Notes: generated by a model from the sequence alone, not told the origin. DNA of 64,000 bases from Candidatus Dormibacteria bacterium (GCA_049518775.1 JBEKRL010000002.1:19689-83688); one strand, 5' to 3'; numbered from the stretch's first letter, positions 35,615 through 42,078 are shown. A program made the numbers and translations.

Positions 35615-36607
35615 TCAGACTCGGACCACCACCACCGCCAGTGCGTAGACGACGTAGAGCCCCAGCCCGACCGGCAGCAGCAGCCTGGCGTTCACGCCCC
35701 GGGCACCGGCCGCCGCCATCCCCACCAGGACTGCCAGGACGGTGACTCCGGCGGCCAGGAAGCCGGCCTCGGATAGCCTCCACGGGGTGAAGCACAGCCC
35801 CACGATGGCCGGGACGGTGGCCTGGAAGGCCATGGCGCCGGTGACGTTGCCGAGCGCCAGGCTGTCGCGGTCGCGGCGGATCCACAGGCTGCCGGCAGTG
35901 AGCTCGGGAAGCTCGGTCGCGATCGGTACCAGCAGCAGCGCCAGGACCAGGGGCGAGAGGTGGGCCAGGCTGGCGACCCGGTGGAGCCCGACCAGGAAGA
36001 CCTCGCTGGCGAGGGCCAGACCGGCCAGACCCACCAGCGCCTGGACCGCGGGCAGCGCCAGGCGGGAGGAGCCATCGGGGCTCCAGCCTCCGGTGAGCCG
36101 GGAGAAGAGCAGCGGCTCGTAGTCGCCCTCGGGAACGGTGTCGGACCTCAGGGTCCGGCGGACGAAGTCGATGTAGAGGAAAGCCAGGATGGCGGCGTCG
36201 ACCCAGCGCAGCGGCCGGGGGAGGAACGCCCCGGCGATCAGCAGGACGAAGCTGACGGTGAACGCCATCATCGCCCGCCGGGCCGCGGTCGGCTCCACGC
36301 GGAGCCAGGGGCGGCCGCAGAGCAGGCTGACCGCGCCCACCACCCCCAGCCCGATCGTCGCCAGCATCAAGGGGGCACCCAGGATCGCCCCGGTGGCGGT
36401 CTGGGCGGCCTGGGGACCGCCCGCGATCAGGGCCACCACCGGGACGATGCTCTCGGGCATGGCGGTGCCCACTGCCGCCATCACGCTCCCGGTCATCCCG
36501 TGCCCCAGCCCCAGGCTGCGGGCCCCCCACTCCACCGCGTTGGTGAAGAGGGTGGCGGCCAGCACCATCAGCACCAGGCCGCCGCCGAAGTCGAGGGCTA
36601 TCTGCAC
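35615..36607 (-). CDS. Ca2+/cation antiporter (CaCA family, YrbG-like) membrane protein
   Basis: ~10 TM helices with two alpha-repeat-like blocks (…GNVTGAMAFQATV…). Confidence 0.7.
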   Translation of the reverse strand: MQIALDFGGGLVLMVLAATLFTNAVEWGARSLGLGHGMTGSVMAAVGTAMPESIVPVVALIAGGPQAAQTATGAILGAPLMLATIGLGVVGAVSLLCGRPWLRVEPTAARRAMMAFTVSFVLLIAGAFLPRPLRWVDAAILAFLYIDFVRRTLRSDTVPEGDYEPLLFSRLTGGWSPDGSSRLALPAVQALVGLAGLALASEVFLVGLHRVASLAHLSPLVLALLLVPIATELPELTAGSLWIRRDRDSLALGNVTGAMAFQATVPAIVGLCFTPWRLSEAGFLAAGVTVLAVLVGMAAAGARGVNARLLLPVGLGLYVVYALAVVVVRV

Positions 36608-36611
36608 TGGG

Positions 36612-37127
36612 TCAGCTGGCGCGGGTCCCAGTCCGTCGCGAGATCACCGAGCCGCCCAGGTCGAAGACCAGCCTGAGGCCGTGAAGCCAGACATCGGCCA
36701 GCCCGACATGCTGGGCCCGCTTCACCGGCAGCACGGACTCGGGGAGCAGAGCGTCGGCGATCCGCTGACGGTACCAGGGGAAGAGCGAGCGGGGGAGCCG
36801 GGCCGGCGCCACCCAGGCCAGGTGCCAGGCCTCCCTGCCGGTCTTGGGCCGTCCTCCCACCGGGCGGCAGCGGAAGACCACATCCAGGTCCCGGCGGATC
36901 CCGGTGAACTGGTAATAGCCGATCAGCCTCTCGACCTCGATCTCCAGCCCCGTCTCCTCCCGGGTTTCCCGGACCACGGTTCGGGCGGGGTCCTCGCTCT
37001 GGTCGACGTGGCCCCCCGGGGGCTCCCAACCGGCCGGCCAGAGCCGGAGCTGGATCAGCACCCGACCCCGGTCATCGACCACGATCGCCTGGGCCCCGAC
37101 CGGCCGCGGGGTGGCTAAGGCAGGCAC
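36612..37127 (-). CDS. NUDIX hydrolase
   Basis: Nudix box GGHVDQSEDPARTVVRETREETGL. GTG start ~37127 overlaps the upstream gene's end by ~13 nt. Confidence 0.75.
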   Translation of the reverse strand: MPALATPRPVGAQAIVVDDRGRVLIQLRLWPAGWEPPGGHVDQSEDPARTVVRETREETGLEIEVERLIGYYQFTGIRRDLDVVFRCRPVGGRPKTGREAWHLAWVAPARLPRSLFPWYRQRIADALLPESVLPVKRAQHVGLADVWLHGLRLVFDLGGSVISRRTGTRAS

Positions 37128-37897
37128 GGGTTGGCCAGCGCCGTGGCCAGGCTGGCGCTGCTGGGGCTGATCAGGTAGCCGATGTTGGGGAACAGCGCCA
37201 ACGGCGGCGGCCCCACCACCAGCCGAGCCCAGAGCCAATCGGCCGCCCCCAGGATCGGGGCCGAGATGGAGAGGCCGGAGGAGCCGAGGTTGGGCAGGAC
37301 GAAGAAGAGCAGGAGGGCGACGACGTAGATCCAGGTGCGGTGCATGTCGATCCAGGAGAAGACCTCAGGGATCTGGCCCCGCAGCAGCCCCTCGGCGACC
37401 CCGTACCCGTCCAGAGGCGGGATCGGGATCAGATTGAAGACGCAGAGGATCACATTGACGAAGAAGCCCTCGGTGAGGATCCAGTAGAGGTAGCCGGCCG
37501 GGGGGAGAGCGAAGCTGGGCAGGTAGCAGTTCTGCACCGAGGGAACCAGGACGATCAGGAGCCGTATGACCACTCCCAGGGCGGCGGCGATCAGCAGGTT
37601 GCTGAAGGGGCCCGCGAAGGCCAGCCAGGCCCGCTGGCGGCCGCGGCGGACATAGGCGGGGTTGTACTGGACCGGGCGGGCGAAGCCGAAGCCGATCAGG
37701 ACCAGCATCGCCAGCCCCAGGGGGTCGATCTGGTTGGCGGGATTAAGCGACAGCCTTCCCTGGCGGCGGGGTGTGGGATCGCCGTAGGAGGTGGCCACCA
37801 GGGCGTGGCAGACCTCGTGGACGGTGAATCCGAGGGCGATCCCGGGGACAGCGAAAAGAAGGAGGATCAGGTAGAACTCAATCCCCGTCCCCAGCAC
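37115..37897 (-). CDS. site-2 protease family zinc metalloprotease (peptidase M50, SpoIVFB-like)
   Basis: HEVCHALVA (HExxH) within TM helices; a second metal ligand …LDG… downstream. Confidence 0.8.
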   Translation of the reverse strand: MLGTGIEFYLILLLFAVPGIALGFTVHEVCHALVATSYGDPTPRRQGRLSLNPANQIDPLGLAMLVLIGFGFARPVQYNPAYVRRGRQRAWLAFAGPFSNLLIAAALGVVIRLLIVLVPSVQNCYLPSFALPPAGYLYWILTEGFFVNVILCVFNLIPIPPLDGYGVAEGLLRGQIPEVFSWIDMHRTWIYVVALLLFFVLPNLGSSGLSISAPILGAADWLWARLVVGPPPLALFPNIGYLISPSSASLATALANPCLP

Positions 37898-37903
37898 CGG
37901 GGT

Positions 37904-38134
37904 TCAGTCCACGACGATCTTGTGGGGGCGGCGTCGGGCCTGGCCCCCCCGGCGGCGGTGCCGGTGCTCGACCGCCGCGGCTGCCGCCAGCACCAGCTCC
38001 CGCTCGGCCTTGAGCAGGTGGGCCCTCGACTCCTCGGGCACCAGCTCGCCGAGCTCGCTGGCCGCCCGGGCCACCGCCTCCTCGAGCACTCGGGCCGCCC
38101 ACCCCGCCAGCCGCTCCGCTTCTTCGCGCTCCAT
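37904..38134 (-). CDS. small alpha-helical hypothetical protein (76 aa) translationally coupled to the upstream ArsA-like gene
   Basis: TGATG stop/start overlap with 38134..39300; Ala/Glu/Arg-rich; no recognisable domain. Confidence 0.45.
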   Translation of the reverse strand: MEREEAERLAGWAARVLEEAVARAASELGELVPEESRAHLLKAERELVLAAAAAVEHRHRRRGGQARRRPHKIVVD

Positions 38135-39300
38135 CAGACTCTCCCAAAGTGAATCGCCAGCTGACCGTGCTCCAGCTGGGCCGAGGTGGTGACCTGGCCC
38201 TGCAGCACCCGGGGCAGGCTGATCTCACGCTTGTAGGGCCCGACGCTGACGTAGAGTTCGTCGTCGCGCTGGGTCAGCTCCACCTGGTCCTTGGTGGCGA
38301 AGGGCAGCTGCAGGGAGAGCACGTAGCCCTCGCCCTCCTTGCGCAGTGACTGCGGCTTGGTGTCGTAGAGGACGGCGCTGGGATCGCGGTCGCCGAAGAG
38401 AGAGTCGGCCAGTTCGCCGAGGTCGCTCAGTCCCAGCACCTCGTGGTCAAACAGCCGGGCGTCCAGAATCGGGACCGGAGAGAAGGCCACCTCGACCTGC
38501 TCTCGGTAGCGCTTCTGGGATTTGCGCCACTCGGCGAAGTAGCCCTCCCCAACCTCCTCGGGAAGCACTCGGTTGACCAGAATCGCATCCACCTGGTAGT
38601 CGTAGAGGTTGAGGTAGGTGAAGGCCCGCTGGGCCTCCTTGATCACCATCTTCTCCAGGTTCAGCACCAGCCGCACGGTGCAGTTCCGGGCGTCGCTGAG
38701 GACCTCCTTCATGGACTCCAGGTCCTCCAGGAGTTCCCGGACCAAGCGGTAGATATCGTCGGCCGGGAGCGGGATGCTGATGAACGGTTGCACCAGCGGA
38801 CGGGCCACCCGCATCACCTTGCGCTCCAGGGGGAAGATCCGGTCCAGGTACCAGCGAGCGACATCGGGGAAGGCCAGCAGTTGCAGGGTCTCGCCGGTGG
38901 GTGCGCAGTCGACGATCAGCACGTCGAATTCCTGCCCCTGGGCATGGCGGCGGATCCACATCAGGCTCGCCACCTCCTCCATCCCGGGCGGCGTGGCCAG
39001 CTCCTCGGCGATGATCTCGTCGACCCCCTGGCTGTTGAACAGCACCGCCAAATAGTCGTGAATGCGGTTCCAATGCCCCTCCATCTCGTGGAGGGCATTG
39101 ACCTCCTGGGCAAAGAGATTCTCGCTGACCTGGACCGGCTCGGGACCGAGCTCGAGGTCGAGGCTGTCCCCCAGGCTGTGCGCGGCGTCGGTGGAGACCA
39201 CCAGGGTCCGCAGCCCGAGCTGCGCACAGCGCACGGCGGTGGCGGCGGCGACGGTGGTTTTGCCCACACCACCTTTGCCCGTGTAGAGGATCACGCGCAT
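38134..39300 (-). CDS. ArsA/Get3-family P-loop ATPase fused to a C-terminal HSP20-like (ArsA_HSP20) domain
   Basis: GKGGVGKTT deviant Walker A, switch regions, and a C-terminal ~90-aa alpha-crystallin-like domain. Start at MRVILYTGKGG (39300); the track ORF runs to 39363. Confidence 0.85.
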   Translation of the reverse strand: MRVILYTGKGGVGKTTVAAATAVRCAQLGLRTLVVSTDAAHSLGDSLDLELGPEPVQVSENLFAQEVNALHEMEGHWNRIHDYLAVLFNSQGVDEIIAEELATPPGMEEVASLMWIRRHAQGQEFDVLIVDCAPTGETLQLLAFPDVARWYLDRIFPLERKVMRVARPLVQPFISIPLPADDIYRLVRELLEDLESMKEVLSDARNCTVRLVLNLEKMVIKEAQRAFTYLNLYDYQVDAILVNRVLPEEVGEGYFAEWRKSQKRYREQVEVAFSPVPILDARLFDHEVLGLSDLGELADSLFGDRDPSAVLYDTKPQSLRKEGEGYVLSLQLPFATKDQVELTQRDDELYVSVGPYKREISLPRVLQGQVTTSAQLEHGQLAIHFGRV

Positions 39301-39337
39301 CTTCGCGAGTATAGGGACGGCCCAAAATGGGCCTCCC

Positions 39338-39889
39338 TCAGCGAAGGATGAAGAACCCCACAACCACCAGCAGCACCATCACCACGCAAACCACGACCAC
39401 CCGGCGCAAGTCCAAGCTCAGATAGGGCGTGCGGTCGATCGGCACCCCCGGGCTCTCGTCCATCGGCTCCAGGTTGGCGACCTGCTGGCGCTGGCGCTCG
39501 GCCCGGCTGGCGACCCGGGTCCTCTTGGGGAGGAAGGACTCATTGGCGGCAGCCACCGGCCGGGGCAGCCCCGCACCCGGCGATGCCTGGACTGACCTGG
39601 TCCCAGTCCCGGGCGAGCCGTGCCGGGCCTGCCGCTGGGGCAGGAAGGAGCCGCTGGGACGGAGCTCCTCAGCGGCCGGGGCCGGTAGGGCGGCCTCAGT
39701 CGCCTCGGGCGCGGGGCCGGCTGGAGCCGGTTCCCGCGGCTGGACCGGCGCAGGCGCGGCTCGGGGGCGAGAACTCGGGGCTGCGCGACGCTTGGGACGT
39801 CTGGCCAAATGTTGGCTCCGCGAACTGGGGCGCCCTCCGGGGCGCGAGATTGGGCGGCGCAAGTGTACCCAAGCCGACGGCGGGCCCAC
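39338..39889 (-). CDS. Pro/Ala-rich ORF ending in a single C-terminal TM helix (tail-anchored topology); extent uncertain
   Basis: …LDLRRVVVVCVVMVLLVVVGFFILR* lies at the extreme C-terminus. The N-terminal part is low-complexity and may be over-extended. Confidence 0.3.
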   Translation of the reverse strand: MGPPSAWVHLRRPISRPGGRPSSRSQHLARRPKRRAAPSSRPRAAPAPVQPREPAPAGPAPEATEAALPAPAAEELRPSGSFLPQRQARHGSPGTGTRSVQASPGAGLPRPVAAANESFLPKRTRVASRAERQRQQVANLEPMDESPGVPIDRTPYLSLDLRRVVVVCVVMVLLVVVGFFILR

Positions 39890-40112
39890 CTCAGCTGGGG
39901 GGTGCAGGCAGCGAGCACCGGCGGGGTGGTGTCAGCTTGGCGAAGGAGGGGACGAGGAGATGCCAGCGCCCACTGCCTGCGTGGGCGATGTGTGTGGGGC
40001 CACATCTTGTGCCCAGAGGGCATTCAACCACAGAATATTGTGCTCCGCAAGGGGGTGCAACAACTCGTCTAACAGGAGATCGGTGCCGGCCCCGGTGGCC
40101 GCCCCCAGGCGT

Positions 40113-41210
40113 TCAGACGTTGAACAGGAAGTGCATCACATCGCCGTCCTGGACCAAGTAGTCGCGCCCCTCGAGCCGGAGTTGGCCGCGGCCCCGCACT
40201 GCCGCGTAGCCGCCCGCCTCGACCAGTTCCTGCCAGCCACAGACCTCGGCCCGGATGAACCCCTTGGCGAAGTCGGTGTGGATCACCCCCGCAGCGTCCC
40301 TGGCGTTGGCGCCCTCCGGCACGGTCCAGGCACGAACCTCTTTCTCGCCCGCGGTGAAGAAGGTCTGCAGGGAGAGGCAGCGGTATCCGGCCCGGCTGAG
40401 CCGCCCCAGGCCTGTCTCGTTCAGTCCCATCTGGGCCAGGAACTCCCTCGCCTCGTCCGGCTCCAGTTCGGCCAGCTCGGCCTCCAGCTTGGCCGAGACC
40501 TCCACGAAGTCCGCCCCCTCGGCGGCGGCCCGCTCGGCTATCTGGGCCGCCAGGGGGATGGCTCCCGCCTCACCCTCGTCGACGTTGGCAACGTAGATCA
40601 CCGGCTTGGCGGTGAGCAGTTGGGAGTCGCGAACCCCGGCCATCTCCTCCTCGCCTAGGGTGACCCGGCGCGCTGGCTCGCCCCGGTCGAGCGCCTCCCG
40701 GACCCGGCTCAGCCCCCGCACCTCGGCCTGGACCCCACGGGCTGCGCCCCCGGCCCGGGCGACCTTGCCGACCCGCTCCAGGCGGCGGTCGACGGTGGCG
40801 ATGTCGGCCAAGGTGAGCTCCAGCTCCAGGATCTCGAGATCGCGAACGGGGTCGACGGCCCCCTCGACGTGGCCGACCTCAGAGGCGGTGAAGGCACGCA
40901 GGACGAATGCGATGGCGTCGTGGCTGCGGATATGGCCCAGGAACTGGTTGCCCAGACCCTCCCCACTGTGGGCACCTCGGACCAGCCCGGCGATATCGGT
41001 GAAGGTCACGGTGGCGGGGATCACCCTGGGTGGGTGGAACAGGTCGGCCAGCTGGGGGATCCGGTCGTCGGGCACGGCCACCACCCCGGTGTTGGGCTCG
41101 ATGGTGGTGAAGGGGAACGCCGCCACCGCGGCGTGGGCCCTGGTGAGGGCGTTGAAGAGGGTGGACTTGCCCGCGTTGGGCAGTCCCACGATCCCCACCG
41201 AGAGGCTCAA
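40113..41210 (-). CDS. ychF: ribosome-binding ATPase YchF (Obg-family GTPase)
   Basis: TTG start gives MSLSVGIVGLPNAGKSTLFNALT…; TGS domain at the C-terminus. Confidence 0.9.
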   Translation of the reverse strand: MSLSVGIVGLPNAGKSTLFNALTRAHAAVAAFPFTTIEPNTGVVAVPDDRIPQLADLFHPPRVIPATVTFTDIAGLVRGAHSGEGLGNQFLGHIRSHDAIAFVLRAFTASEVGHVEGAVDPVRDLEILELELTLADIATVDRRLERVGKVARAGGAARGVQAEVRGLSRVREALDRGEPARRVTLGEEEMAGVRDSQLLTAKPVIYVANVDEGEAGAIPLAAQIAERAAAEGADFVEVSAKLEAELAELEPDEAREFLAQMGLNETGLGRLSRAGYRCLSLQTFFTAGEKEVRAWTVPEGANARDAAGVIHTDFAKGFIRAEVCGWQELVEAGGYAAVRGRGQLRLEGRDYLVQDGDVMHFLFNV

Positions 41211-41220
41211 GCCAGCTGGC

Positions 41221-42078
41221 TCACTGAGACGGCGCGGGTCCCGCCAGGACCCGGCGCACCAGCTCGGCAAGCCCACCACCACCCGGGCCCGGAACCACCC
41301 AGTCGGCCATCGCCAGGACCTCGGGCACGGCCGTCTCCACGGCCACCTTGGTACCCGCCGCCGCCAGGAGCGGCCCGTCGTTGGGGGCGTCGCCCAGCGC
41401 CACCACTTCGCTGGGGTGAAAGCCGAGGTGGCGGCAGAGCCAGCGCAGGGCGTGGCCCTTGTTCACGTCACGGGCAGTGATCTCGCAGAAGCCAACCAAG
41501 GAGCGGGTCACCTCGCAGCGGTCGCCGACTAGCTCCCGCAGCTCCCCCAGGGCGGCGGTGAACCGATCTGGGTCCGCCGCCACCACGGTGAGCTTGGTGC
41601 TCCCTTGGGACAGCCTGACCTCGAGCGGCGGGTCGGTGGCGACCTCAGCCTCGACCTGGGCGGTCCGGAGGTAGAAGAGAACGTCCTGGTTGATCTCGTC
41701 CACGTAGAGGTGGTCGTTCTGGAAGACGTTGACGGAGTAGCCTCGTCGGCGGCAGAGCTCGAGGATCTCCAGGGACAGCTCGCCGGGTACCGCTCGCTGG
41801 TAGAGCACGGCGGCCCGGTCGGGGTCGGCCCCGGGGTCGTCTTCGGGAGGGAGCTCTTTGATCAGGGCGCCCTGATAGCAGATCAAGGGGACGTTCGCCC
41901 CCAGGCCCAGGGCGTGGGGCAGGCCGGACCGGTACATCCTGCCGGTGGCCACCCCCACCCGGATCCCGGCCGCCCTGGCCGTCCCGGCAGCGGCCACGTC
42001 GCGGGGGTCCAGGACGAGGCGGTCGTCGAGAAGGGTGCCATCGAGGTCGCTGAGGATCAGCCTGGTGGTCAAGGTCAC
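41221..42078 (-). CDS. Cof-type HAD-IIB phosphatase
   Basis: LILSDLDGTLL motif I; GTG start ~42078; the track ORF has a long junk N-terminus. Confidence 0.8.
   Translation of the reverse strand: MTLTTRLILSDLDGTLLDDRLVLDPRDVAAAGTARAAGIRVGVATGRMYRSGLPHALGLGANVPLICYQGALIKELPPEDDPGADPDRAAVLYQRAVPGELSLEILELCRRRGYSVNVFQNDHLYVDEINQDVLFYLRTAQVEAEVATDPPLEVRLSQGSTKLTVVAADPDRFTAALGELRELVGDRCEVTRSLVGFCEITARDVNKGHALRWLCRHLGFHPSEVVALGDAPNDGPLLAAAGTKVAVETAVPEVLAMADWVVPGPGGGGLAELVRRVLAGPAPSQ

What the first reader, a model, noticed from the sequence alone, without database searches (positions are those of the whole stretch)
37904..39889. Get3/ArsA-HSP20 fusion ATPase flanked by a tail-anchored ORF and a translationally coupled small protein, followed by a site-2 protease
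The 38134-39300 protein is a full ArsA/Get3-type ATPase with a C-terminal alpha-crystallin-like domain. There is no arsB/arsD partner, so it is not an arsenite pump. Immediately upstream is an ORF whose only clear feature is a C-terminal TM helix at the extreme end, the topology of Get3 clients in eukaryotes and archaea. Immediately downstream is a 76-aa helical protein coupled by TGATG, then an M50 intramembrane protease, Nudix and CaCA genes in one co-directional array. The function of bacterial ArsA-HSP20 proteins is unknown; this neighbourhood suggests a membrane-protein targeting or quality-control role.
Basis: partly seen in the sequence, partly recalled or inferred. Interest (0 to 1): 0.55.

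Follow-up and report, generated by a model that had tools for sequence, protein, structure and literature searches.

The report
Get3-like ATPase with docking-tail partner
A bacterial relative of the Get3 membrane-protein chaperone, fused to a small-heat-shock-type domain, is encoded next to a real tail-anchored membrane protein and a tiny helical protein whose conserved tail resembles the peptide that such domains bind, which points to candidates for this ATPase family's unknown partners.

Summary
On the minus strand lie a tail-anchored (TA) protein gene, a single-domain Get3/ArsA ATPase with a C-terminal ArsA_HSP20 alpha-crystallin domain (aCD), a 76-aa ORF overlapping its stop (TGATG), then M50 protease, Nudix and CaCA genes. 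The TA start is revised to TTG 39808. The organism is a Candidatus Dormibacterota.

- **ATPase:** it belongs to the known but functionally open Get3d / "group 6" class. It is not an arsenite pump.
- **Small gene:** it follows the ATPase gene in about 74 of 80 related loci from four or more phyla, with start/stop overlap in 54 of 66 clean pairs. It is a helical hairpin with a flexible tail ending in [IV]-x-[IVL]-[DE]-COOH. This has the form of the small-heat-shock IxI motif, which docks in the aCD beta4/beta8 groove.
- **Other tails:** in Bacillota and Chitinispirillaceae a MarR regulator upstream carries the same tail. In an actinomycete the downstream gene is a DUF5304 protein ending in IDLN.
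- **TA gene:** it is present in 61 of 64 Dormibacterota loci but not in other phyla.
- **M50, Nudix, CaCA:** these are lineage synteny, not core.

Best reading: a Get3d-type hydrophobic-helix chaperone whose aCD recruits IxI-tailed partners in trans, with the TA protein as a probable client. The docking and the client role are inferred, not shown.

The parts
39338..39808 (-). Tail-anchored membrane protein gene (156 aa). The start is revised to TTG 39808. It has a basic N-terminus MARRPKRR, a Pro/Ala-rich disordered region with two SFLP[RK][RK] repeats, and a conserved C-terminal module.
   Evidence: GC3 frame plot. Orthologue alignment shows the conserved N-terminus and C-terminal 50 aa. A family HMM finds it upstream on the same strand in 61 of 64 Dormibacterota loci. 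No Pfam or NCBIfam hit.
39422..39445 (-). Conserved juxtamembrane motif VPIDRTPY. The family consensus is [IV]P[FL]DR[VT]PY, always 35-42 residues from the C-terminus.
   Evidence: The motif was found in 57 of 62 family members, with IPLD and IPFD dominant.
39344..39400 (-). Single C-terminal transmembrane helix VVVVCVVMVLLVVVGFFIL. It is preceded by DLRR and followed by one residue (R) and the stop codon.
   Evidence: Hydropathy maximum of about 3.1 at the extreme C-terminus in the window protein and its orthologues.
38134..39300 (-). Get3d-class ATPase (388 aa): a single Get3/ArsA domain plus a C-terminal alpha-crystallin domain.
   Evidence: Pfam and NCBIfam. By PDB sequence search the ATPase domain is closest to archaeal Get3 3ZQ6 (2.9e-50) and 3UG6. 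Foldseek top hits are 3ZQ6 and NosGet3d 8EGK (from a low-confidence model).
38398..39300 (-). Get3/ArsA ATPase domain (residues 1-301). It has the deviant Walker A GKGGVGKT, switch I STDAAHSL, switch II DCAPTGET and the TRC40-insert region. It has no CxxC motif.
   Evidence: Gap-poor alignment to Methanothermobacter Get3 through the insert region. The archaeal CEFC aligns to GYFA in this protein.
38146..38331 (-). ArsA_HSP20 alpha-crystallin domain (residues 324-385). The protein ends 3 residues later and has no IxI tail of its own.
   Evidence: PF17886 E=2.6e-20. The only PDB sequence hit for this domain is the Nostoc Get3d aCD, 3IGF/8EGK, E=3e-4.
37904..38134 (-). Small partner protein (76 aa): helix 2-29, a turn at the near-invariant Pro33, helix 34-64, and a basic flexible tail.
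   Evidence: AlphaFold mean pLDDT 81.6. An HMM finds it directly after the ATPase gene in every Dormibacterota locus with enough sequence, and also in L054, L069, L078 and L080. Alignment A2.
37907..37918 (-). C-terminal IVVD-COOH, an instance of the family motif [IV]-x-[IVL]-[DE]-COOH (IxI-type tail).
   Evidence: Motif statistics: position -4 is I/V in 142 of 144, position -2 is I/V/L in 142 of 144, position -3 is variable, and position -1 is E/D in 134 of 144.
37115..37897 (-). M50 site-2-type intramembrane metalloprotease (260 aa; HEVCH and LDG motifs). It starts 6 nt after the small gene.
   Evidence: PF02163. It follows the small gene in 46 of 64 Dormibacterota loci and in none outside the phylum.
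36612..37238 (-). Nudix hydrolase gene. The start is uncertain; the ORF as listed overlaps the M50 end. This is lineage synteny, not part of the core.
   Evidence: PF00293 E=4.7e-17; synteny.
35615..36607 (-). CaCA-family cation/Ca2+ exchanger gene. This is lineage synteny, not part of the core.
   Evidence: PF01699 E=5.3e-24; synteny.

Best explanation
This is a Dormibacterota operon built around a Get3d-class ATPase, meaning a Get3 fold fused to an alpha-crystallin domain (aCD).

Shown here:
- The ATPase has an intact deviant Walker A, switch I, switch II and the TRC40-insert region. It lacks the CxxC zinc motif and every ArsA-pump hallmark.
- The gene after it encodes a helical hairpin with a flexible tail ending in [IV]-x-[IVL]-[DE]-COOH. 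This gene pair is conserved across Dormibacterota, Bacillota, Chitinispirillaceae and some Chloroflexota, usually with overlapping stop and start codons.
- The gene before it in Dormibacterota encodes a bona fide tail-anchored protein.

Inferred mechanism:
- The ATPase works as a homodimer. It shields a very hydrophobic C-terminal helix in its composite hydrophobic chamber, as shown in vitro for Arabidopsis and Nostoc Get3d.
- Its aCD has no C-terminal extension of its own. It uses the beta4/beta8 groove to bind the IxI-type tails of partner proteins in trans.
- The tethered hairpin then acts on the ATPase cycle or on client release.
- The adjacent TA protein is the most likely dedicated client, or else a membrane partner.
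- In Bacillota, a MarR regulator with the same tail would couple the chaperone's state to transcription of the operon.
For: - Family assignment.
- Known biochemistry of the class: Get3d proteins hydrolyse ATP, capture a TA helix and have a closed hydrophobic chamber. The role of the aCD and the partners are stated to be unknown (PMC10248533). Bacterial group 6 is described with function unknown (PMC6593721).
- Pair conservation: 66 clean ATPase + small-gene pairs in 80 loci, with stop/start overlap in 54. Near-variant tails bring the total to about 74.
- Reverse test: three small-protein hits, found without reference to the ATPase, all sit in MarR-ArsA_HSP20-small triads with otherwise unrelated flanks.
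- Cultured example: Bacillus thuringiensis has MarR(...NIPIE) - ArsA family ATPase - DUF3926(...NIIIE).
- Actinomycete example: Nonomuraea has an ArsA_HSP20 ATPase followed by a DUF5304 protein ending in HIDLN.
- Motif: 133 of 144 independent family representatives end in the motif. Alternate positions are conserved and the middle position is free, as expected for a strand inserting into a groove. Background frequency is 1.1% of ORFs, nearly all of which are these partners.
- Literature on IxI: it is the conserved small-heat-shock C-terminal motif that binds the beta4/beta8 groove. In MjHSP16.5 the IXI-deletion construct stops at G143 (PMC3638399); that the protein is 147 aa, so the motif lies at its extreme end, is my recollection. 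In IbpA the motif is IEI (bioRxiv 10.1101/2020.04.20.050740).
- TA protein: 61 of 64 Dormibacterota loci, on the same strand and usually within 160 nt. It has a single, highly hydrophobic transmembrane helix followed by 0-7 residues.
Against: - No structure or complex prediction of the tail with the aCD could be run, so docking is inferred from motif form and gene linkage only.
- The aCD sequence does not visibly differ between loci with and without the small gene.
- Four Anaerolineae-type loci, Fusobacterium (two tandem paralogues) and the cyanobacterial NosGet3d type have the aCD but no small partner nearby.
- The TA gene is restricted to one phylum, in which YchF and other neighbours are also syntenic. 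Its adjacency could therefore be inherited gene order. A DUF1003 gene is inserted between the TA gene and the ATPase gene in about 20 loci.
- Farkas et al. found no correlation between TA-protein load and possession of these ATPases. E. coli inserts TA proteins by other routes.
- The AlphaFold model of the ATPase was poor, with mean pLDDT 57.
Confidence: 0.5

Rival explanations
1. The ATPase is a general ATP-regulated holdase, not a targeting factor. The Get3-aCD protein protects aggregation-prone or hydrophobic proteins under stress. The small IxI-tailed protein is a co-chaperone or regulator. The TA gene, M50, Nudix and CaCA are neighbours by descent only.
For: - Farkas et al. argue for a general chaperone role for the aCD-bearing bacterial homologues and found no link to TA-protein numbers.
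- The cross-phylum core contains no membrane protein. In Bacillota it is a MarR regulator + ATPase + small protein, which is a typical stress-regulon layout.
- The TA gene is phylum-restricted.
Against: - The TRC40 insert and groove region are retained at archaeal-Get3 length.
- Two Get3d proteins bind a TA helix in vitro.
- The TA gene stays next to the ATPase across the phylum, while the distance to YchF varies widely.
Confidence: 0.3
2. The operon is a regulated intramembrane proteolysis module. The TA protein is N-in with almost no external tail, which makes it a ready-made site-2 protease substrate. The M50 protease would cleave it, and the ATPase and small protein would handle or extract the released or uncleaved helix. 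This would be a signalling or quality-control circuit.
For: - The TA protein has positively charged DLRR before the helix and only 0-7 residues after it.
- The M50 has intact HExxH and LDG motifs and starts 6 nt after the small gene.
- M50 follows the small gene in 46 of 64 Dormibacterota loci.
Against: - M50 is missing from this position in a whole Dormibacterota clade that keeps the TA, ATPase and small genes (L009, L010, L013, L015, L020-L029).
- M50 is absent from all non-Dormibacterota loci.
- No sigma or anti-sigma domain, nor any other recognised regulatory domain, is detectable in the TA protein.
Confidence: 0.12
3. It is an arsenite or antimonite resistance ATPase (ArsA), as many database annotations say.
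For: - Source names such as 'arsenite-transporting ATPase'.
- A Pfam ArsA_ATPase hit.
Against: - It has a single domain, not the tandem ArsA architecture.
- TIGR04291 ArsA scores 88.7 bits against a cut-off of 650.
- No arsB, ACR3, arsD, arsR or arsC next to it in the window or in any related locus examined.
- It carries a TRC40 insert and an aCD, which ArsA lacks.
Confidence: 0.02

Closest known systems
Get3d (Arabidopsis At1g26090; Nostoc All4481, also called NosAFP), Barlow et al. 2023, PMC10248533
   Same: - A Get3 fold followed by a C-terminal alpha-crystallin domain, and no CxxC zinc motif.
- The aCD of the window protein hits only NosGet3d in the PDB.
- Full-length structural matches include 8EGK and 8ELF.
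- Get3d has in vitro ATPase activity and binds a TA helix.
   Different: - The window protein has canonical catalytic motifs and is much closer to archaeal Get3 (2.9e-50) than to NosGet3d (4e-23) or AtGet3d (1e-12).
- It scores 149 bits against a cut-off of 325 for the NosAFP equivalog.
- It comes from Dormibacterota, a phylum not known to be phototrophic (my knowledge), whereas Get3d was tied to photosynthesis.
- NosGet3d-type loci have petP and chlG as neighbours and no small IxI partner.
Bacterial 'group 6' Get3 homologues with an alpha-crystallin domain (Farkas et al. 2019, PMC6593721)
   Same: This is the group the window protein belongs to: cytoplasmic, single domain, TRC40 insert, nucleotide site present, aCD present, no CxxC. 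It is found in non-photosynthetic phyla including Firmicutes, Actinobacteria and Chloroflexi.
   Different: - That survey was at the protein level only. No gene neighbourhood, partner protein or IxI tail was reported in the sections read.
- Dormibacterota is not listed there.
Archaeal Get3 / TRC40 (Methanothermobacter 3ZQ6, Methanocaldococcus 3UG6)
   Same: - Best sequence and structural match for the ATPase domain, including the insert region and the C-terminal nucleotide-contacting segment.
- Archaeal Get3 binds TA proteins (PMC6593721).
   Different: Archaeal Get3 has no alpha-crystallin domain, and 3ZQ6 has a CxxC motif (CEFC) where the window protein has GYFA.
Small heat-shock proteins and their C-terminal IxI/V motif (MjHSP16.5, IbpA, alphaB-crystallin)
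   Same: - An alpha-crystallin fold, and a short [IV]-x-[IV] strand motif preceded by basic residues at or near the C-terminus.
- In small heat-shock proteins this motif docks in the beta4/beta8 groove of a neighbouring aCD (PMC3638399; IbpA IEI).
   Different: - Here the aCD and the motif are on different polypeptides encoded by adjacent genes.
- The Get3d aCD lacks the small-heat-shock oligomerisation features.
- Binding has not been shown.
DUF3926 (PF13080, Bacillota) and DUF5304 (PF17230, Actinomycetota)
   Same: - Both are uncharacterised small proteins encoded directly after an ArsA_HSP20 ATPase gene.
- Both end in I-x-[IL]-[EN]-COOH.
- DUF3926 members align with the window protein as helix-Pro-helix-tail.
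   Different: - The window protein does not score against either Pfam model.
- DUF5304 is about twice as long, has a CPVC motif, and its homology to the window protein is not established.
Eukaryotic GET pathway regulators (Get4 at the site where the Get3d aCD sits; the Get1/WRB cytosolic coiled-coil hairpin)
   Same: This is a functional analogy only. A roughly 70-80 aa antiparallel helical hairpin acting on a Get3 dimer would resemble the Get1 cytosolic domain. The aCD occupies the Get4 site in Get3d structures.
   Different: - No sequence or significant structural similarity: Foldseek of the hairpin model gave nothing below E=1.
- The small protein is soluble, not part of an insertase.

Membership tests
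Get3/TRC40/ArsA ATPase superfamily (TIGR00345, PF02374) | Family HMM score above the curated cut-off | tested here: met
   TIGR00345 267 bits against a cut-off of 135; PF02374 303.7 bits against 24.3.
Get3/TRC40/ArsA ATPase superfamily (TIGR00345, PF02374) | Deviant (intradimeric) Walker A GKGGhGK[ST], switch I Asp, and switch II DxAPTG | tested here: met
   YTGKGGVGKTT, STDAAHSL and DCAPTGET are read from the translation and aligned to 3ZQ6. They are invariant in alignment A1.
ArsA arsenite-pump ATPase (TIGR04291) | Two tandem homologous ATPase domains in one chain of about 580 aa | tested here: not met
   388 aa with a single ATPase domain. TIGR04291 scores 88.7 bits against a cut-off of 650 and matches residues 4-153 only.
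ArsA arsenite-pump ATPase (TIGR04291) | Genetic linkage to arsB/ACR3, arsD and arsR | tested here: not met
   The neighbours are YchF, the TA protein, the small protein, M50, Nudix and CaCA. No ars genes appear in the related loci examined.
Get3d / bacterial group 6 (Get3 + alpha-crystallin domain) | C-terminal alpha-crystallin (ArsA_HSP20) domain fused to a single Get3 domain | tested here: met
   PF17886 E=2.6e-20 over residues 324-385. The only PDB hit for the domain is the NosGet3d aCD.
Get3d / bacterial group 6 (Get3 + alpha-crystallin domain) | Absence of the Zn-binding CxxC motif | tested here: met
   In the alignment to 3ZQ6, the archaeal ...SDCEFCNARR... aligns to ...GEGYFAEWRK....
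Get3d / bacterial group 6 (Get3 + alpha-crystallin domain) | TRC40 insert / hydrophobic groove region present | tested here: inconclusive
   The region between switch II and the following helices aligns to archaeal Get3 at the same length. The 3D groove could not be assessed because the AlphaFold model had pLDDT 28-50 there.
Get3d / bacterial group 6 (Get3 + alpha-crystallin domain) | Binds a TA transmembrane helix and hydrolyses ATP | not testable with these tools
   Shown only for AtGet3d and NosGet3d (PMC10248533).
NosAFP equivalog (NF050088, Nostoc-type Get3d) | Score above the equivalog cut-off | tested here: not met
   149.1 bits against a cut-off of 325. A true cyanobacterial member scores 425.7 bits.
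Tail-anchored membrane protein (operational definition) | A single transmembrane helix within about 30 residues of the C-terminus, no N-terminal signal sequence, and the N-terminus cytosolic | tested here: met
   The only hydrophobic segment is residues 137-155 of 156. DLRR precedes it. The N-terminus is basic and disordered. The architecture is the same in 61 orthologues. Topology is predicted, not measured.
Small heat-shock IxI/V tail - alpha-crystallin groove interaction | A conserved [IV]-x-[IV] motif in a flexible C-terminal extension | tested here: met
   The window protein ends in IVVD after a low-confidence, non-helical tail. 133 of 144 family representatives end in [IV]x[IVL][DE].
Small heat-shock IxI/V tail - alpha-crystallin groove interaction | Physical docking of the motif in the beta4/beta8 groove of the aCD | not testable with these tools
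No complex model was made.
Site-2 protease, peptidase family M50 | HExxH and the downstream LDG motif in membrane helices; Pfam score above the cut-off | tested here: met
   PF02163 35.2 bits against 27.2. HEVCH and NLIPIPPLDG are in the translation.
DUF3926 (PF13080) | Pfam model score above the gathering threshold | tested here: not met
   The window 76-aa protein has no hit even at E=10. Bacillota counterparts do hit: 1e-33 for the B. thuringiensis protein.

The most novel reading that the evidence does not exclude
The alpha-crystallin domain of Get3d-class ATPases is a receptor for C-terminal IxI tails supplied in trans, and the operon is a minimal bacterial GET-like system.

- It would consist of a dedicated tail-anchored client, a Get3-type carrier, and a tethered helical-hairpin factor. 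The hairpin would control ATP hydrolysis or client release, analogous to Get4 or the Get1 coiled coil.
- In other phyla the same tail on a MarR repressor would let chaperone occupancy set transcription of the operon.
- DUF3926, DUF5304 and the unnamed Dormibacterota family would then be the long-sought Get3d partners.
Probability: 0.3. Interest if true: 0.8.

Novelty: new variant of a known kind. Interest (0 to 1): 0.62.

Why it matters
[quoted passage not shown] However, the two papers that define the class state that its function, the role of the alpha-crystallin domain, and its partners are unknown.

This work yields a concrete and cheap hypothesis. The domain binds IxI-type tails of the protein encoded next door. 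Named candidates exist in culturable organisms:
- DUF3926 plus a MarR regulator in the Bacillus cereus group.
- DUF5304 in actinomycetes.

In Dormibacterota there is also a specific candidate client, the adjacent tail-anchored protein.

If confirmed, it would give the first partner set for a bacterial Get3 system. It would also show a small-heat-shock docking mechanism reused for partner recruitment. Finally, it shows that the class is not tied to photosynthesis.

Tried and rejected
- **Arsenite pump reading:** rejected on domain architecture, HMM cut-offs and neighbours.
- **AlphaFold of the ATPase:** run with a 20-sequence alignment, it gave a poor model with mean pLDDT 57. It was usable only for a coarse Foldseek match, not for inspecting the groove or the aCD surface.
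- **Foldseek of the small-protein hairpin:** nothing below E=1, only generic helical hairpins.
- **Complex prediction:** I built paired, linker-joined ATPase + small-protein sequences, but I did not submit them.
- **aCD sequence comparison:** comparing loci with and without the small partner showed no discriminating columns.
- **Promoter and terminator scan:** uninformative, with 0 promoters and 2 terminator-like sites against 1.8 expected.
- **Partner in cyanobacterial NosGet3d-type loci:** none found. The database search with the Nostoc aCD fragment returned only short gene fragments.
- **DUF5304 in the plasmid collection:** only a self hit, so the suspected link to Streptomyces SCO2127 could not be verified.
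- **Literature searches:** DUF3926, DUF5304 and PF17886 returned nothing beyond the Get3d paper.
- **Alternative frame ORF 39418-40023:** it has high GC3 at 39730-39790. I rejected it as the gene because orthologues conserve the MARRPKRR frame, and Pro/Ala/Arg-rich sequence inflates GC at all codon positions.
Full report
**1. What is in the window**

The window is about 70% G+C. A tight co-directional gene array lies on the minus strand between 41282 and 35615.

| Gene | Coordinates |
|---|---|
| YchF GTPase | 40113-41282 |
| Non-coding gap | about 300 nt |
| Tail-anchored (TA) protein | 39338-39808 |
| ATPase | 38134-39300 |
| 76-aa ORF | 37904-38134 |
| M50 protease | 37115-37897 |
| Nudix hydrolase | 36612-37238 |
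| CaCA exchanger | 35615-36607 |

- Spacing is 37 nt between the TA gene and the ATPase gene.
- The ATPase and the 76-aa ORF share one base (TGATG).
- The gap is 6 nt to M50 and 4 nt between Nudix and CaCA.
- Close relatives of the ATPase (80-95% identity) come from Candidatus Dormibacterota metagenome-assembled genomes.

**2. The ATPase**

- It matches ArsA_ATPase (E=1.8e-90) and ArsA_HSP20 (E=2.6e-20).
- It passes the GET3/ArsA/TRC40 subfamily cut-off, at 267 bits against 135.
- It fails the ArsA pump equivalog (88.7 against 650) and the Nostoc-type Get3d equivalog (149 against 325).
- By sequence, the ATPase domain is closest to archaeal Get3 structures (3ZQ6, 2.9e-50; 3UG6). These rank ahead of Nostoc Get3d (4e-23) and Arabidopsis Get3d (1e-12).
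- That alignment shows the deviant Walker A, switch I and switch II. The insert region has archaeal length. The archaeal CxxC motif is replaced (CEFC aligns to GYFA).
- The alpha-crystallin domain (aCD) alone hits only Nostoc Get3d in the PDB.
- My AlphaFold model was poor, with mean pLDDT 57. Its Foldseek hits are nonetheless led by 3ZQ6 and 8EGK.
- The protein is therefore a member of the class described as bacterial 'group 6' (PMC6593721) and as Get3d (PMC10248533).
- Within that class it belongs to the catalytically intact subgroup. It comes from a phylum not known to be phototrophic (my knowledge).
- Both papers state that the function, the role of the aCD and the partners are unknown. 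Barlow et al. showed ATPase activity and TA-helix capture in vitro for two members.

**3. The small downstream gene is the strongest signal**

I fetched 80 loci encoding relatives at 47-85% identity. They come from Dormibacterota, Chloroflexota, Bacillota, Chitinispirillaceae and Rokubacteria.

- *Presence.* An HMM of the small protein finds it directly after the ATPase gene in every Dormibacterota locus with enough sequence. It also finds it in L054, L069, L078 and L080.
- *Other phyla.* Bacillota and Chitinispirillaceae loci carry a 68-77 aa ORF in the same place, with the same helix-Pro-helix-tail layout.
- *Coupling.* Sixty-six loci give clean pairs, and in 54 of them the start codon overlaps or abuts the ATPase stop.
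- *Structure.* AlphaFold predicts helices 2-29 and 34-64 and an unstructured tail, with mean pLDDT 81.6.
- *Tail motif.* The tail ends in [IV]-x-[IVL]-[DE]-COOH. Examples are KIVVD in the window and RVELE, KIPIE, RIDIE and KKIELE elsewhere.
- *Background.* The pattern occurs in 1.1% of all ORFs of 30 aa or more in these sequences. Almost all of those occurrences are this gene.
- *Wider sample.* An exhaustive profile search of 1.84 billion representative proteins found 185 clusters. Of the best 144 small proteins, 133 end in the motif. Positions -4 and -2 are nearly invariant, and position -3 is free. The profile included the tail, so this sample is not fully independent.
- *Reverse test.* Starting from three small-protein hits and looking at their contigs, each sits in a MarR-ArsA_HSP20-small triad whose outer flanks differ.

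**4. The same tail on other neighbours**

- In Bacillota and Chitinispirillaceae, the gene directly upstream of the ATPase is a MarR-family regulator. Its C-terminus is ...KKIEIE...RVEIE...RITIE or ...NIPIE.
- A cultured example is Bacillus thuringiensis YB6 (NZ_CP151870). It has MarR, then an ArsA family ATPase, then a DUF3926 protein (PF13080, 1e-33) ending in NIIIE.
- In Nonomuraea gerenzanensis, an ArsA_HSP20 ATPase is preceded by an SRPBCC protein. It is followed by a DUF5304 protein (PF17230, 32.4 bits against 26.8) ending in HIDLN, and then by a ROK glucokinase.
- From memory, this resembles the SCO2127-glkA arrangement of Streptomyces coelicolor. I could not verify that link.

**5. Interpretation of the tail**

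- The IxI/V motif is the conserved C-terminal element of small heat-shock proteins. It binds the beta4/beta8 groove of a neighbouring aCD.
- In MjHSP16.5, the IXI-deletion construct truncates at G143 (PMC3638399). That the protein is 147 aa, which would put the motif in the last five residues, is my recollection rather than something the passages I read state.
- In IbpA the motif is IEI.
- The ATPase ends three residues after its aCD and has no such tail of its own. Barlow et al. note that the Get3d aCD lacks oligomerisation features and sits where Get4 binds yeast Get3.
- The simplest reading is that the aCD recruits IxI-tailed partners in trans. This rests on motif form and gene linkage; I could not model a complex.

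**6. The tail-anchored gene**

- The ORF is real. A family HMM finds it upstream on the same strand in 61 of 64 Dormibacterota loci, and two of the three exceptions lack upstream sequence.
- The C-terminal 50 residues are conserved: ...LEPLDExPAIP[FL]DR[VT]PYxxxDLRRV, then about 20 hydrophobic residues, then 0-7 residues.
- The N-terminal region is variable and Pro/Ala/Arg-rich. It has a conserved basic start and SFLP[RK][RK] repeats.
- The alignment and an upstream GGAG move the start to TTG 39808.
- The motif [IV]-P-[FLIVM]-D in this protein also has IxI form. This is speculative.
- The TA family was not seen next to the ATPase in other phyla.
- In about 20 Dormibacterota loci, a DUF1003 membrane-protein gene lies between the TA gene and the ATPase gene.
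- Because much of the local gene order is conserved within the phylum, adjacency alone is only moderate evidence for a client relationship.

**7. M50, Nudix and CaCA**

- The protease has intact catalytic motifs and follows the small gene in 46 of 64 Dormibacterota loci.
- One clade has lost it from this position, and it is never present outside the phylum.
- I treat these three genes as lineage synteny. The intramembrane-proteolysis idea is kept as a minor rival.

**8. Limits and exceptions**

- Four Anaerolineae-type loci, Fusobacterium (two tandem paralogues) and cyanobacterial Nostoc-type Get3d have the aCD but no small partner nearby.
- In the cyanobacterial locus the neighbours are petP and chlG.
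- The aCD sequences with and without a partner show no obvious difference.
- No experiment or complex model supports docking.

**9. Verdict**

- The ATPase is a new member of a known but functionally open class.
- The conserved IxI-tailed partner, the same tail on MarR regulators, and the phylum-wide TA neighbour appear to be undescribed in the literature I could search.
- I rate this as a new variant of a known kind, with interest 0.62.

Noticed in passing
L081:2915-5468 (JGI metagenome 3300041964, contig Ga0456421_00974); also L082: In a cyanobacterial contig, the Nostoc-type Get3d gene (NosAFP equivalog, 425.7 bits; split by an assembly frameshift) lies between petP (cytochrome b6f subunit PetP, 1.5e-32) and chlG (chlorophyll synthase, 593 bits). 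All three are on one strand. There is no small IxI-tailed ORF. This neighbourhood fits the proposed link of that subgroup to the photosynthetic machinery.
   Followed up: partly
L065, L066, L070, L072, L074, L076, L077, L083-L089 (about 80 nt upstream of the ATPase gene): A MarR-family regulator of 160-186 aa directly upstream of the ArsA_HSP20 ATPase gene ends in the same tail as the small downstream protein (...KKIEIE, ...RVEIE, ...NIPIE). This implies a transcription factor tethered to, or sensed by, the ATPase.
   Followed up: partly
L090:2457-5548 (Nonomuraea gerenzanensis NZ_LT559118, labelled a plasmid but 11.85 Mb): The gene order is SRPBCC protein - ArsA_HSP20 ATPase - DUF5304 protein (CPVC motif, acidic/Arg repeats, ends HIDLN) - ROK glucokinase. 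From memory, the gene upstream of glkA in Streptomyces coelicolor is SCO2127, a protein with carbon-catabolite and development phenotypes. The equivalence was not verified.
   Followed up: partly
L091:1814-4167 (Fusobacterium vincentii NZ_CP084075): Two tandem ArsA_HSP20 ATPase paralogues of 396 and 388 aa have overlapping stop and start codons and no small partner gene. This suggests a heterodimeric variant of the system.
   Followed up: no
about 20 Dormibacterota loci, e.g. L044:5470-5991, L050:5469-5990, L061:5422-5991: A DUF1003 membrane-protein gene (PF06210, 9.9e-26) is inserted between the tail-anchored protein gene and the ATPase gene in one Dormibacterota clade.
   Followed up: partly
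window 39418-40023 (-), against 39338-39889 (-): An alternative-frame ORF of 201 aa overlaps the TA gene and shows higher GC3 (0.93-0.97) around 39730-39790 than the real frame. This is an example of Pro/Ala/Arg-rich, high-GC sequence misleading frame plots.
   Followed up: yes
window 39500-39660 (-), and orthologues in L001-L006: The disordered region of the TA protein carries two (three in L006) conserved SFLP[RK][RK] repeats of unknown meaning.
   Followed up: no
one search hit table; locus titles: Several near-identical ATPases (about 55-83% identity to the window protein), and loci with the same Dormibacterota-type gene order, are deposited under unrelated names: Micrarchaeaceae archaeon, Verrucomicrobiae, Angelobacter, Eisenbacteria, Acidoferrum. 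This probably reflects mis-binned or mislabelled metagenome-assembled genomes.
   Followed up: no
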